From contig OZ024742.1 of the NCBI GenBank assembly GCA_964016885.1, positions 304,854,001-304,918,000 of the forward strand: DNA of 64,000 nucleotides, written 5' to 3'. The translations under genes were made by a program, and so were the position numbers. The notes under the pieces are model-generated. The model worked only from the letters and a program-made list of their open reading frames with translations. It was not told where the DNA came from and searched no databases. Within the stretch, counting starts at the first letter, position 1; each line of letters starts with the position of its first letter. The stretch comes from Eledone cirrhosa. Its lineage: Eukaryota. Of this stretch, positions 5,253 to 34,305 are shown one piece after another.

Positions 5253-6357
5253 GCACACACATGTATTCATTTATTCATACCTGTGTGACTACACATTTCG
5301 GCTCCTAATATTCCTGCCAATCTATCTACATATAAATATTCCTACTTTCGGCACTATCAAAATAGTTATACTTTTCCCAGTAGTTTTACCTCCCACACTC
5401 AAGTCAGTCTGCTTCTTCTACTACCAAGCAATACCGACAAAAGTATGTTTCAATGATTGGTTCTGTTTAGGACAAAGGCCAAAACATTGATCGGTTACAA
5501 ACTTAGGTTTATTCAACCGAGAGACCTAACTTTTTATCTACTCAACCAGGGTGACCTCTGTGTTACCAAGAATATCAAACGTGCGGATATTAAACCAGCA
5601 CCACGGAATCAACGAGACATAAATTGGTAGTTTAAATTCTATGCAGAAAACTGTTTAGTATTTTGATTATAACTGCTTCTATAATAGTTCAACGCAGGGG
5701 TGTACTCTAAATGAATCCTGTCATATCTAGGAAATCTCATTTGGTATTCTCTCAACATTTATCTTTGAAAGGTAAATCATAATGATGTAATTCATAAACA
5801 GAATTATAGTACTCCATCTTTATAAAGTACAAATATGAAGTAAATCTCAGGTGGTAAATATGATACAACAACGAAACATTCTAAGTGTTCTTATTTCTGA
5901 AATTGATGAGATAGTTCCAATTCTCTAGGGATTTAATTTACCATGGAAATGGAAACAACAATGTATACTAAAATACGGCAAAATGCTCGATGCTGTGTCA
6001 ATGAAAATAATCTTTCCAATAATTACAGTGAACCAACTTTATCAATCCTCCAATATTTACACTCAGTTCGACATTTAGGAATATGTATAACAAAATTTGC
6101 AATTTCGCGGTCTCGTAACGACTTATTCTGAAGTTATGAAACAATAAAACATGAAAGAATATATCGAATAAGATTGGAGCTTTGATGTTTACAGACAAAA
6201 ATGTGAAAGTGACTTCATTTCCGATCTATATAAATTACTTAATCTTGAATCTAGTTACTCAATACATCCAGAAAATGCGCACACACGCACAGACGAACAC
6301 ACACGAACACTCATACGCAGTCACGCACCCCTGCTCGTATATATATATATATATATA

Positions 6358-6856
6358 TCACATAAGAAACGGAGAATCAGTGGTGCGACGAATTAGAAAT
6401 TATTAGACATATTACAATCGTTTTTCTGGCGACCACCTCGAGGTACGATCGAGGCGAGGATCGAACCCGACACTGAAATCGCAAGTTCTTCAGATACGTC
6501 TTTATCCCTCGAAGCAAAATTTCCAAATGTCCTCTTTATCCCGCCTGCCTTCGTTCGCCAGCATCAATCCTGTTCTTGTCGGTCGATGAGTGGTTTAGAA
6601 TTGAACAGGTCATCGGGATTTCTGACCATTCATGGCCGTATATGAAGAACTTATGATTTCAGAGTCAGGTTCGATCCTCGCATCGATCGTACCTCGAGCT
6701 GGTCGCCAGAGAAACGATTGTTATATGTCTAATAATTTCTAACTCGTCGCACCACTGATTCTCCGTTTCTTATGTGATATTATGCTCTGCTCTGTAAGAG
6801 CATCGAGTGCTCAAACGGCATACCGCATACCGACGCTTTTAAGCATCCCACTCCAA
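6358..6856. mobile_element. Foldback element in (TA)n with ~140 bp arms (6358-6498 / 6637-6777), a hammerhead-like motif in each arm, and an unpaired right-hand tail; probable non-autonomous Penelope-like element
   Basis: Left TCACATAAGAAACGGAGAATCAGTGGTGCGACG... is the reverse complement of right ...CGTCGCACCACTGATTCTCCGTTTCTTATGTGA. Arm consensus is CGTAT-CTGAAGA-(~60 nt)-GAAA-CGATTG-TA-ATATG. Confidence 0.75.
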
Positions 6857-33202: not shown

Positions 33203-33274
<72 letters not shown>

Positions 33275-33431
33275 AAAGTTAAACAAGTTTCTATGAATAC
33301 ATCAAAGAATGAGTTTTCCAATAGATTGGAAGCACTCAACCAAAATGGTTTTCCAGAGTTTTTTATTAATTCAAATGATTATTAATTCAAATTTAGCCAT
33401 CTACTATGTCAGGGTATGTCATGCATCATCT

Positions 33432-33498
33432 TATTTTATCTGATGAGGACGTACTGTTGAACTTAACTCAGTACCTCTGAAATATGTATAATAAAATA
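33432..33498 (+). ncRNA. Minimal type I hammerhead ribozyme motif
   Basis: Stem I TATTTTAT/ATAAAATA (8 bp); core CTGATGA (33440-46); stem II GGACGTACTG/CAGTACCTCT; GAAA (33479-82); self-complementary TATGTA; UA cleavage site after 33490. Confidence 0.8.
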
Positions 33499-33550
33499 TA
33501 CTTGATCACAAGAATATCTATTTTGTTAATATTTTGAATTAATATATCTA

Positions 33551-33595
<45 letters not shown>

Positions 33596-33808
33596 CAGCC
33601 GACTGGCTAAATCCAACCTGCGGTACTGCCATTGTTACTACTCTTTCTATAGCTGACATTCCTTGTTTGGCCATTATGCATGACGGTGTTTCTTACTACT
33701 ACCCTAATTTTTGACATGTTGTTGGCCGTAGAAGCGCCACATTTTACTGTGTCAAGTTCTTCATGCACAGAATGAGACACACATATATATGTATTATATA
33801 TATATCTG

Positions 33809-33874
33809 TATTTTATCTGATGAAAGCGCACCAAAATTTGCCTTGTTTGCCCTTGAAATATATATAATAAAATA
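33809..33874 (+). ncRNA. Minimal type I hammerhead ribozyme motif
   Basis: Stem I TATTTTAT/ATAAAATA; CTGATGA (33817-23); stem II AAGCGCA/TGCCCTT; GAAA (33855-58); palindromic TATATA; UA cleavage site after 33866. Confidence 0.78.
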
Positions 33875-34004
33875 AATATGGTTTTATAAATATAGTTTCC
33901 ATTTATCAATATATTGTGTATTTACTCCACTAACATTTTGATTGCTTATATCAGTTATAAAAATGTTTAAGCTTGTTGAATCCCAACAAATTAAATATAA
34001 CCTC

Positions 34005-34068
<64 letters not shown>

Positions 34069-34077
34069 CCAAATCCT

Positions 34078-34178
34078 GATTTGAAAGACTTCGCAATATC
34101 GTGCTATTAAGCTAGACACGGCCTGCGCCAATACTGGCCGAAACCTATTAAACATATCAAAGTTCAAGTTATATATAT

Positions 34179-34213
<35 letters not shown>

Positions 34214-34305
34214 ACTTGAACTTTGATATTTTTAATAGGTTTCGGCCAGTATTGGCGCAGGCCGTGTCTAGCTTAATAGCACGATATTGCGAAGTCTTTC
34301 AAATC
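34078..34305. repeat. Near-perfect inverted repeat (~93 bp arms) centred on a (TA)n tract
   Basis: GATTTGAAAGACTTCGC...AAAGTTCAAGTT (TA)n AACTTGAACTTT...GCGAAGTCTTTCAAATC; one mismatch seen. Confidence 0.92.

What the first reader, a model, noticed from the sequence alone, without database searches (positions are those of the whole stretch)
33432..33874. Two canonical, co-oriented hammerheads whose cleavage sites are 376 nt apart
Seen: both have an intact core (CTGATGA/GAAA/UA) and an identical 8 bp stem I. Their stem II sequences differ, yet both pair and both have a C-C mismatch at position 4. Their stem III hexamers (TATGTA, TATATA) are cross-complementary. Established: minimal hammerheads with palindromic stem III act as dimers, and tandem hammerheads release circularisable retrozyme RNAs of a few hundred nt. 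Inference: a transcript through here could form a heterodimeric double hammerhead and excise 33491-33866. The intervening (TA)n and dissimilar flanks suggest two independent insertions.
Basis: partly seen in the sequence, partly recalled or inferred. Interest (0 to 1): 0.72.

Follow-up and report, generated by a model that had tools for sequence, protein, structure and literature searches.

The report
Two truncated Penelope-element ends with hammerheads
The two hammerhead ribozyme motifs are real, but each is the cut-down tail of a different, very abundant Penelope-like jumping gene that landed separately in a (TA)n stretch, so this is an ordinary member of a known kind and their joint release of a 376-base RNA would be at most an accidental by-product.

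Summary
Two co-oriented minimal type-I hammerhead motifs lie at 33432-33498 and 33809-33874. Both have intact cores, an identical 8-bp helix I, different helix II sequences that share a C·C mismatch, and predicted cuts 376 nt apart.

They are not a dedicated unit. An exact pattern for the motif occurs 31,915 times in this 3.0-Gb genome, against 0 for the reversed control. HH1 and HH2 belong to different families. Each family forms the 3' end of a different Penelope-like retrotransposon (PLE), 1.6-2.1 kb downstream of an RT/GIY-YIG-type ORF, followed by a short arm and (TA)n. The window holds only the last ~150-200 nt of each. One copy carries an inverted fragment upstream, which is typical of PLE insertions. 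The ~190-nt spacer between them is not part of either element.

Across 82 distinct copies, 7 of 9 helix II pairs show compensatory changes, so the fold has been under selection. This matches the published minimal, dimer-dependent hammerheads of PLEs. It differs in a conserved C·C at 10.4/11.4, an A-U or G·U pair at 10.1/11.1, and an 8-bp helix I. Cleavage is untested and no RNA data were available. HH2 carries a copy-specific mutation that weakens its fold. Verdict: a new member of a known kind, of low to moderate interest.

The parts
33205..33271 (.). (TA)n microsatellite flanking the family-A insertion on the left
   Evidence: Sequence read; repeat families.
33268..33381 (-). Inverted fragment of the distal 3' arm of the family-A element. 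It has no hammerhead. It is the part that the forward copy lacks.
   Evidence: alignment. In one search, 11 of 16 BLAST hits cover >=70% of the query, with median identity 83.6% and maximum 88.8% to the long-form 3' arms of other family-A copies.
33393..33543 (+). 5'-truncated family-A Penelope-like element end: about 39 nt of leader, hammerhead HH1 and the proximal 3' arm ending in GAATTAAT
   Evidence: In one search, 33 of 37 hits cover >=70%, with median 92.4% and maximum 98.0% identity. Family A lies about 2.1 kb 3' of an EN-type ORF in long copies.
33432..33498 (+). HH1, a minimal type-I hammerhead motif with its predicted cut between 33490 and 33491
   Evidence: The helix I+II fold scores -8.5 kcal/mol, and the MFE structure (-10.1) contains both helices.
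33544..33593 (.). (TA)n-like tract at the 3' end of the family-A copy
33594..33803 (.). Spacer that belongs to neither element. Its first ~118 nt resemble an old low-copy repeat, and its last ~25 nt are TA-rich.
   Evidence: In one search, 33596-33785 gives 12 matches including itself; the other 11 are 73-81% identical over at most 118 of 190 nt. In one search, no contigs from other copies cover 33572-33791.
33804..34007 (+). Family-B Penelope-like element end, 5'-truncated about 5 nt before helix I: HH2 plus the long-form 3' arm
   Evidence: In one search, 77 of 83 hits cover >=70% of 33802-33925 (maximum 95.9%), and 23 of 27 hits cover >=70% of 33926-34005. In one search the arm is 95-96% identical at 39 other listed places. 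Family B lies about 1.6 kb 3' of an EN-type ORF.
33809..33874 (+). HH2, a minimal type-I hammerhead motif with its predicted cut between 33866 and 33867. The T at 33846 is copy-specific; nearly all other copies have G.
   Evidence: The hammerhead fold scores only -1.5 kcal/mol against an alternative MFE of -5.8. At 33846, T>G accounts for about 130,416 of 130,890 depth units in run X1.
34008..34065 (.). (TA)n tract at the 3' end of the family-B copy

Best explanation
The two motifs are real minimal type-I hammerhead motifs, each the 5'-truncated 3' end of a different family of Penelope-like retrotransposon (PLE) that most likely inserted independently into a (TA)n-rich spot.

Shown:
- The motif anatomy.
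- Membership of two repeat families that together belong to a superfamily of about 32,000 exact-pattern copies.
- The position of both families 1.6-2.1 kb downstream of an RT/GIY-YIG-type ORF in long copies, followed by a 50-150-nt arm and (TA)n.
- The PLE-typical inverted 5'-truncated partners.
- Compensatory change in helix II across families.

Inferred:
- In full elements the hammerheads would pair through their palindromic 8-nt helix III (AUAUAUAU or AUAUGUAU) and cut PLE transcripts. This is what has been proposed in print for PLE minimal hammerheads.
- The window copies are dead-on-arrival fragments.
- The inverted piece next to HH1 comes from priming on both target strands.
- If a transcript runs through the locus, HH1 and the weakened HH2 could form a mixed double hammerhead, but only by accident of their placement.
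For: Anatomy and abundance: (31,915 matches against 0 for the reversed control).

Families and boundaries:
- One search aligns 9 family-A and 10 family-B copies.
- One search gives identities of up to 98.0% and 95.9% to other copies.
- One search shows contigs from other copies covering only 33264-33571 and 33792-34011.

PLE link for family B:
- RT, middle and EN pieces are collinear on the + strand at 5290-6548 of the joined stretch, with HH_B at about 8150.
- The 1,981-nt stretch from the EN coding end through HH_B matches 22 other places end to end at 83-93% identity, among 54 listed matches. 40 of 4,024 candidates were scored.
- The ORFs carry YRDD and a GIY...YVG-type motif.

PLE link for family A:
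- Two independent copies share 3,671 nt at 93% identity from the RT coding region through EN to the hammerhead.
- N-terminal, RT, middle and EN hits are collinear, and HH_A lies about 2.1 kb after EN.

PLE nature of the ORF: the nearest Atlas clusters, scoring 0.96-0.98, carry HTH_animal, RVT_1 and GIY-YIG.

PLE insertion signatures:
- 16 of 29 family-B copies chosen only by their 3' arm have an inverted copy directly upstream, and 7 of 29 are truncated in or next to the hammerhead.
- Among the first 100 pattern hits, 13 pairs lie within 1 kb of each other, where about 0.4 are expected. 9 are divergent, 3 co-oriented and 1 convergent.
- These features match the published description of PLEs: inverted 5'-truncated copies, tails and (TA)n targets (PMC8557442, passages read), and cleavage and extension of both strands with internal initiation (PMC11167929, main text part 1).

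Selection on the fold:
- In 96 copies, 10.2, 10.3, 10.5, 10.6 and 10.9 switch between A-U/U-A and G-C/C-G pairs, and C·C at 10.4/11.4 is kept in 89 of 96.
- On 82 distinct sequences, 7 of 9 helix II pairs change on both sides and 93.4% of cells are paired. The covariation score is 0.322 against 0.211 +/- 0.007 for shuffles (0 of 500 reach it) and 0.063-0.105 when partners are slid.

Published precedent: minimal dimer-type hammerheads in PLE flanking repeats, mostly found as single truncated copies or as pairs on opposite strands 100-700 bp apart (PMC4209133, parts 1-2 of the text read).
Against: - No cleavage assay and no RNA evidence. No RNA run is listed, and the runs that were laid are of unknown kind and cover only the repeat parts.
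- Pfam does not recognise RT or GIY-YIG in the ORFs. The PLE assignment of the ORF rests on tblastn collinearity, motifs read by eye and Atlas neighbours.
- The G10.1-C11.1 pair, reported as highly conserved in PLE and canonical hammerheads, is present in only 3 of 96 copies. Every family also carries a C·C mismatch in helix II. Either feature could lower activity or point to a non-catalytic role.
- The published activity of PLE minimal hammerheads in vitro is low (PMC4209133).
- The copies used for covariation were picked with a pattern that fixes the core, the 5' strand of helix I and GAAATAT. Only helix II and the 3' strand of helix I were free to vary.
- The sequences are related by descent, so the number of independent compensatory events is smaller than the cell counts suggest.
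- Truncated family-B copies do not pile up at the predicted cut. At most 1 of 7 does, and that one is ambiguous. The genome therefore holds no fossil trace of in-vivo cleavage.
Confidence: 0.88

Rival explanations
1. One reading: the pair is a working heterodimeric double hammerhead. It would excise 33491-33866 from a transcript and yield a circularisable, retrozyme-like RNA of 376 nt.
For: Both cores are intact and co-oriented. Helix I is identical. The helix III stretches can pair with one G·U, at a duplex energy of -3.2 kcal/mol. Dimeric constructs of weak-helix-III hammerheads cleave far better than monomers in salamander repeats (PMC7229834, passages read).
Against: The two motifs come from different PLE families and separate insertions. 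The spacer is not a repeat unit. HH2 has lost distal helix II pairing, and its hammerhead fold (-1.5 kcal/mol) is less stable than an alternative (-5.8). Helices I and III are pure A-U. Only 3 of 13 close pairs in the sample are co-oriented. Transcription is unknown.
Confidence: 0.06
2. The conserved block (helix I, core, helix II with C·C, palindrome) is kept in these PLE families mainly for a non-catalytic job. For example, it could be a structure recognised by the PLE reverse transcriptase or used during priming at (TA)n targets. Under this reading, self-cleavage would be weak or irrelevant.
For: The 8-nt helix III stretch is itself (TA)n-like, matching the preferred target. The G10.1-C11.1 pair is absent in 93 of 96 copies, and the invariant C·C looks like a recognition feature rather than a catalytic need. 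The published in-vitro activity of PLE minimal hammerheads is low, and authors leave other functions open (PMC4209133). Naiad PLEs proliferate without canonical hammerheads (PMC8557442).
Against: All 11 core positions plus U16.1-H17 are those needed for catalysis, and they are kept between families whose flanks share no similarity. Fungal PLE hammerheads cleave well (PMC4209133). No protein-binding data exist.
Confidence: 0.2
3. The motifs are chance hammerhead look-alikes in AT-rich, microsatellite-rich DNA.
For: The bare pattern CTGATGA-N15-45-GAAA is not enriched in the window: 3 matches against 1.09 expected. No Rfam hammerhead model matches.
Against: There are 31,915 genomic matches against 0 for the reversed pattern. 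Helix II shows compensatory changes. The position at PLE 3' ends is conserved.
Confidence: 0.01

Closest known systems
Minimal hammerheads (min-HHR) in the flanking repeats of metazoan Penelope-like elements (Cervera & de la Pena 2014, PMC4209133; text parts 1-2 read)
   Same: Type-I topology, an intact core, a long helix II, almost no helix III of its own but a palindromic 15.x-16.x stretch suited to dimers, and no loop-loop contacts. They are located in PLE terminal regions. There are thousands of mostly solitary truncated copies, with pairs on opposite strands 100-700 bp apart and many families per genome that covary.
   Different: Here helix I is 8 bp (4-5 bp reported). There is no unpaired base between A9 and 10.1; instead a C·C mismatch sits at 10.4/11.4 in 89 of 96 copies. 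The 10.1-11.1 pair is A-U (54), G·U (34) or G-C (3), rather than the reported conserved G-C. The copy number of one exact pattern (31,915) exceeds the ~9,000 reported for the richest genome in that paper.
Animal non-LTR retrozymes (Cervera & de la Pena 2020, PMC7229834, passages read; Li, Clavereau & Pollet 2026, bioRxiv 10.64898/2026.07.22.740005, abstract and Results part 1 read)
   Same: Short AT-rich units of a few hundred nt bounded by type-I hammerheads, some of them dimer-dependent. They co-occur with PLEs and are proposed to derive from them.
   Different: Retrozymes are tandem repeats of one unit, with canonical hammerheads that have loop 1-loop 2 contacts. Here the two hammerheads belong to different families, the sequence between them is not a repeat unit, and the motifs are of the minimal PLE type.
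Newt and salamander satellite hammerheads that cleave as double hammerheads (as summarised in PMC7229834, and PMC4209133)
   Same: A weak helix III with a palindromic loop, and activity as dimers formed between neighbouring copies.
   Different: Those have a short helix II and conserved tertiary contacts, and they sit in homogeneous ~330-bp tandem arrays.
Penelope-like elements of the C-terminal-EN type (Craig et al. 2021, PMC8557442, passages read; Frangieh et al. 2024, PMC11167929, main text part 1 read)
   Same: An ORF with RT followed by a C-terminal GIY-YIG-type EN, a hammerhead near the 3' end, heavy 5' truncation, an inverted 5'-truncated copy at the upstream side, and (TA)n targets.
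   Different: The clade of the families here was not determined. The 3' UTRs are long (1.6-2.1 kb between EN and hammerhead).

Membership tests
Hammerhead ribozyme, type I | Conserved core C3-U-G-A-N-G-A9 ... G12-A-A14, with U16.1-H17 at the cleavage site | tested here: met
   Both window copies have it. 95 of 96 sampled copies have CTGATGA and 1 has CTGAGGA, but the sampling pattern required the core.
Hammerhead ribozyme, type I | Helices I and II around the core, supported by covariation, with open ends in helix I | tested here: met
   Helix II: 7 of 9 pairs change on both sides and 93.4% of cells are paired. Helix I: 96.3% of cells are paired, but with only one-sided (G·U) changes and none compensatory.
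Hammerhead ribozyme, type I | A helix III that closes the three-way junction | tested here: inconclusive
   As a monomer only 2 bp plus a 4-nt loop are possible. An 8-nt palindrome (AUAUAUAU in 44 copies, AUAUGUAU in 51 of 96) would give an intermolecular helix in a dimer at -2.2 to -3.2 kcal/mol. Dimer formation is inferred.
Hammerhead ribozyme, type I | G10.1-C11.1 pair at the base of helix II | tested here: not met
   A-U in 54, G·U in 34, G-C in 3 and unpaired in 5 of 96 copies.
Hammerhead ribozyme, type I | Match to the curated Rfam hammerhead models | tested here: not met
   No hammerhead family matches at gathering score in the window or at E<=10 in 33380-33920.
Hammerhead ribozyme, type I | Site-specific self-cleavage | not testable with these tools
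   No RNA run is listed. An in-vitro assay is needed.
PLE minimal hammerhead (min-HHR) | Location in the terminal non-coding region (pLTR / 3' UTR) of a Penelope-like element | tested here: met
   Family B: EN through hammerhead is contiguous at 22 other places. Family A: 3,671 nt are shared at 93% from RT to hammerhead in two copies.
PLE minimal hammerhead (min-HHR) | Long helix II and a palindromic 15.2-16.2 stretch | tested here: met
   Helix II is 9-10 bp. The palindromes are listed.
PLE minimal hammerhead (min-HHR) | An unpaired nucleotide between A9 and 10.1, and a short (4-5 bp) helix I | tested here: not met
   Position 10.1 pairs directly with 11.1 in 91 of 96 copies. The irregularity is instead a C·C at 10.4/11.4. 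Helix I is 8 bp.
Penelope-like element | A single ORF with a reverse transcriptase followed by a GIY-YIG endonuclease | tested here: inconclusive
   tblastn hits for the N-terminal, RT, middle and EN pieces are collinear. YRDD and GIY/YIG-like motifs were read in the ORFs. Atlas neighbours carry RVT_1 + GIY-YIG + HTH_animal at 0.96-0.98. However, Pfam gives no RT or GIY-YIG hit, and many copies are frameshifted.
Penelope-like element | Insertion signatures: 5' truncation, an inverted 5'-truncated copy upstream, and (TA)n targets | tested here: met
   16 of 29 copies have an inverted partner and 7 of 29 are truncated at the hammerhead. (TA)n lies at the ends. The window copy has an inverted arm at 33268-33381.
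Non-LTR retrozyme | Tandem copies of one 150-450-bp unit, each with the same hammerhead | tested here: not met
   The two hammerheads differ in family and flanks. The spacer has only 11 weak partial matches elsewhere.
Non-LTR retrozyme | Expression as linear and circular monomer RNA | not testable with these tools
   No RNA holder is listed.

The most novel reading that the evidence does not exclude
All the hammerhead families of this genome's Penelope-like elements keep the same 8-bp helix I and the same (UA)n-type helix III palindrome, while helix II drifts. Hammerheads of different families may therefore pair with one another. If so, closely spaced co-oriented PLE stumps such as this pair would act as accidental cross-family double hammerheads, cutting host transcripts and shedding small circularisable RNAs at many places in the genome. 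Under this reading the invariant C·C in helix II is a lineage-specific functional element.
Probability: 0.1. Interest if true: 0.55.

Novelty: new member of a known kind. Interest (0 to 1): 0.25.

Why it matters
The locus itself matters little. It is two dead fragments of common retrotransposons.

At genome level it gives a very large natural data set of PLE-type minimal hammerheads: about 32,000 exact-pattern copies in several families with compensatory changes. Three features depart from the published consensus: a C·C at 10.4/11.4, no G10.1-C11.1, and an 8-bp A-U helix I. These could be used to test what these low-activity ribozymes do for Penelope-like elements.

The result also shows that the Rfam hammerhead models miss the whole class here.

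Tried and rejected
1. Rfam scans gave no hammerhead hit. This reflects model scope and is not evidence against the motif.

2. RNA evidence. No RNA holder is listed. I laid the three runs of unknown kind, which come from one sample. Their short contigs cover only the repeat parts. The listed joints of about 33498 to 33874-33883 come from 60-90-nt contigs with 21-nt sides, in motifs that the two families share. I do not read them as excision.

3. Fossil trace of cleavage. I asked whether 5'-truncated family-B copies begin at the predicted cut. Of 7 truncated copies among 29, the break points lie in the helix II loop, at 11.8, at 11.5, at G12, about 6 nt before the cut, about 10 nt after it, and one is hidden in (TA)n. 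There is no pile-up, so this is inconclusive.

4. First PLE candidate next to a family-A copy (L031). That ORF belongs to another PLE family, which has 52,133 first-look EN candidates. Its 3' end carries a different hammerhead-like block, so it did not link family A to an ORF. The link came later.

5. I first read families A and B as short SINE-like units from 4 to 10 copies. Searches corrected this, because many copies extend for kilobases upstream.

6. Thermodynamic folding of dimers. The MFE dimers are not the textbook double hammerhead, and the energies are small. This gives only weak guidance.

7. Pfam on the ORF pieces gave no RT or EN hit.

8. The search of earlier findings near the locus and by sequence returned nothing.

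Full report
**Observation**

Reading 33300-34000 confirms two co-oriented motifs on the + strand.

- HH1 (33432-33498): TATTTTAT / CTGATGA / a 32-nt helix II hairpin / GAAA / TATGTAT / A / ATAAAATA.
- HH2 (33809-33874): the same helix I strands and core, a different 31-nt helix II, and TATATAT in place of TATGTAT.

In standard hammerhead numbering, the 8 nt from A15.1 to U16.1 are ATATGTAT and ATATATAT. Both helix II stems have three pairs, then a C·C, then more pairs.

The bare core pattern is not unusual for this window: 3 matches against 1.09 expected. The 15-mer shared by both sites is exact twice. No Rfam hammerhead model matches, at gathering score or at E<=10.

**A huge repeat family**

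The pattern TTTTATCTGATGA-N20-45-GAAATAT occurs 16,089 + 15,826 times in the window's own 2.996-Gb genome. The reversed control gives none. The listed matches fall into several helix II families.

- HH1 belongs to one family (A: GGACGTACTG...CAGTACCTCT). HH2 belongs to another (B: AAGCGCACC...GGTTGCCCTT). Each family has its own flanks.
- Window copy 1 (33393-33543) is up to 98.0% identical to other family-A copies. Copy 2 (33804-33925, continuing to 34007) is up to 95.9% identical to family-B copies.
- The sequence between them is different. 33596-33785 has only 11 other matches, 73-81% identical over at most 118 nt.
- Contigs from other copies in three public runs cover 33264-33571 and 33792-34011, but nothing in between.

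The 376-nt piece is therefore a composite: the family-A 3' arm, a (TA)n tract, unrelated DNA, and the first 63 nt of the family-B fragment. It is not a repeat unit.

**What the families are**

From a few copies I first took them for short SINE-like units. Larger samples corrected this.

- Family B. In one long copy, RT, middle and EN pieces are collinear on the + strand, and HH_B follows about 1.6 kb after the EN match. The ORFs there show YRDD and a GIY...YVG-type motif. The 1,981 nt from the end of the EN coding region through HH_B match 22 other genomic places end to end at 83-93% identity. This is among 54 listed matches, with 40 of 4,024 candidates scored.
- Family A. Several of 29 copies chosen by their leader extend more than 1.5 kb upstream. 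Two independent copies share 3,671 nt at 93% identity, running from the RT coding region through EN and a ~2.1-kb non-coding stretch to the hammerhead. N-terminal, RT, middle and EN tblastn hits are collinear.

Pfam does not recognise these ORFs. The nearest ESM-Atlas clusters of a 628-aa ORF from a related family, scoring 0.96-0.98, carry HTH_animal, RVT_1 and GIY-YIG. That combination characterises Penelope-like elements (PLEs). EN-type ORFs of this kind are extremely common here, with 52,133 first-look candidates.

**Insertion signatures**

I chose 29 family-B copies only by their 3' arm.

- 22 hold the whole hammerhead, and 21 of those have both core boxes intact.
- 7 are truncated inside or next to the hammerhead.
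- 16 have an inverted copy directly upstream.
- The ends abut (TA)n.

Among the first 100 pattern hits on contig 1, 13 pairs lie within 1 kb of each other, where about 0.4 are expected for random placement. 9 are divergent, mostly of the same family and 82-209 nt apart. 3 are co-oriented, each pair from different subfamilies. 1 is convergent.

These are the published hallmarks of PLEs: heavy 5' truncation, an inverted 5'-truncated copy at the upstream side, tails, and (TA)n targets (PMC8557442, passages). Cleavage and extension of both target strands with internal initiation is also described (PMC11167929, main text part 1).

In the window, copy 1 fits the pattern. An inverted fragment at 33268-33381 corresponds to the distal 3' arm, which is exactly the part the forward copy lacks because it stops at GAATTAAT. 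I read this as priming on both strands during one insertion, which is an inference. Copy 2 is truncated about 5 nt before helix I.

**Is the fold selected?**

In 96 copies:

- The pairs at 10.2, 10.3, 10.5, 10.6 and 10.9 switch between A-U/U-A and G-C/C-G.
- The C·C at 10.4/11.4 is kept in 89 of 96.
- The 10.1/11.1 pair is A-U (54), G·U (34) or G-C (3).

On an alignment of 82 distinct sequences, the named structure gives:

- 7 of 9 helix II pairs with changes on both sides;
- 93.4% of cells paired;
- a covariation score of 0.322, against 0.211 +/- 0.007 in shuffles (0 of 500 reach it) and 0.063-0.105 with slid partners.

Helix I is 96.3% paired but shows only G·U variation.

Caveats: the sampling pattern fixed the core, the 5' strand of helix I and GAAATAT. 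The copies are also related by descent, so the independent events number a handful of family splits.

Even so, the only blocks shared between families A and B, whose flanks are otherwise unalignable, are helix I, the core, the base of helix II with its C·C, and the palindrome. This argues for purifying selection on the motif in the active elements.

**How it most likely works**

The anatomy matches the minimal hammerheads described in the flanking repeats of metazoan PLEs. Those have a long helix II, no real helix III but a palindromic stretch suited to a double hammerhead, and no loop-loop contacts. They occur as thousands of mostly solitary truncated copies, or as pairs on opposite strands (PMC4209133).

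That paper reports no cleavage for single motifs and low cleavage for dimers, and proposes processing of PLE precursor RNAs. I adopt that as the likely role in full elements. It remains inferred.

For this locus, folding gives HH1 a plausible hammerhead fold: -8.5 kcal/mol for helices I+II, with an MFE structure that contains both. HH2 is weak, at -1.5 against -5.8 for an alternative. The reason is that the T at 33846 replaces a G found in nearly all other copies. The intermolecular helix III would contribute only -2.2 to -3.2 kcal/mol.

A mixed double hammerhead on a read-through transcript is therefore possible, but not favoured and not evolved. I give it about 6%.

**Comparison and novelty**

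This is a new member of a known kind. It differs from the published PLE min-HHR consensus in three ways:

- an 8-bp all-A-U helix I;
- no unpaired base after A9, but an invariant C·C at 10.4/11.4;
- almost no G10.1-C11.1.

It is not a non-LTR retrozyme (PMC7229834; bioRxiv 10.64898/2026.07.22.740005). There is no tandem unit, and the hammerheads are not of the canonical type.

Earlier notes of this scan on other windows of the same genome reached the same class for other hammerhead families. I treat them as leads only.

**What stays open**

Nothing here shows cleavage or transcription. No RNA holder was listed. The truncation points of family-B copies do not mark the cut site.

Noticed in passing
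L008:1823 (-), L017:215 (+), L030:960 (-), L033 (about 641 in ORF orientation): A second, unrelated hammerhead-like repeat: ...CAGTCA CTGAAGAG GTCACA-GAAT-GTGTGAC GAAA GAAC... It has a short G-C-rich helix II and turned up in 4 of the roughly 60 loci fetched for other reasons.
   Followed up: no
L123:360-480, L124:60-130, L125:100-170 (orientation of the ORF): The very abundant PLE family found first (52,133 EN candidates) ends in a hammerhead-like block with CCGAAGA in place of CUGANGA (C at position 4). The block has an 8-9-bp helix II, GAAA, the palindrome CAATTG and then TA. It lies about 100-250 nt before the terminal (TA)n.
   Followed up: partly
window 34078-34305: An almost perfect palindrome (113-nt arms, 99% complementary, 2 nt apart) whose centre is a (TA)n tract. 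Part of it (34100-34187) is repeated elsewhere, judging by contig cover. It looks like another tail-to-tail or head-to-head element pair.
   Followed up: no
window 19050 (-) and 24948 (-): Two identical copies, 5.9 kb apart, of CCCTCCAACA CTGAAGA TAACCCAACGAATTCGGAGGAA GAAA. They are probably two copies or terminal repeats of another element, picked up only because they contain the core words.
   Followed up: no
window 33973-33989: A small hairpin (TTGTTG / AATCC / CAACAA) lies about 18 nt before the 3' end of the family-B element.
   Followed up: no
L129, L130, L132, L141, L142, L145, L154 (family-B copies): 7 of 29 copies chosen by their 3' arm are truncated within about 45 nt around the 3' half of the hammerhead, while none is truncated in the ~75 nt of leader before it. 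This may reflect reverse-transcriptase stops at helix II.
   Followed up: partly
L005:8-1456: A ~1.4-kb array of short AT-rich repeats (read as ...SHIYI... in all frames) lies next to a family-A copy. (TA)n, (CA)n and (GA)n tracts are extremely frequent around all the elements inspected.
   Followed up: no
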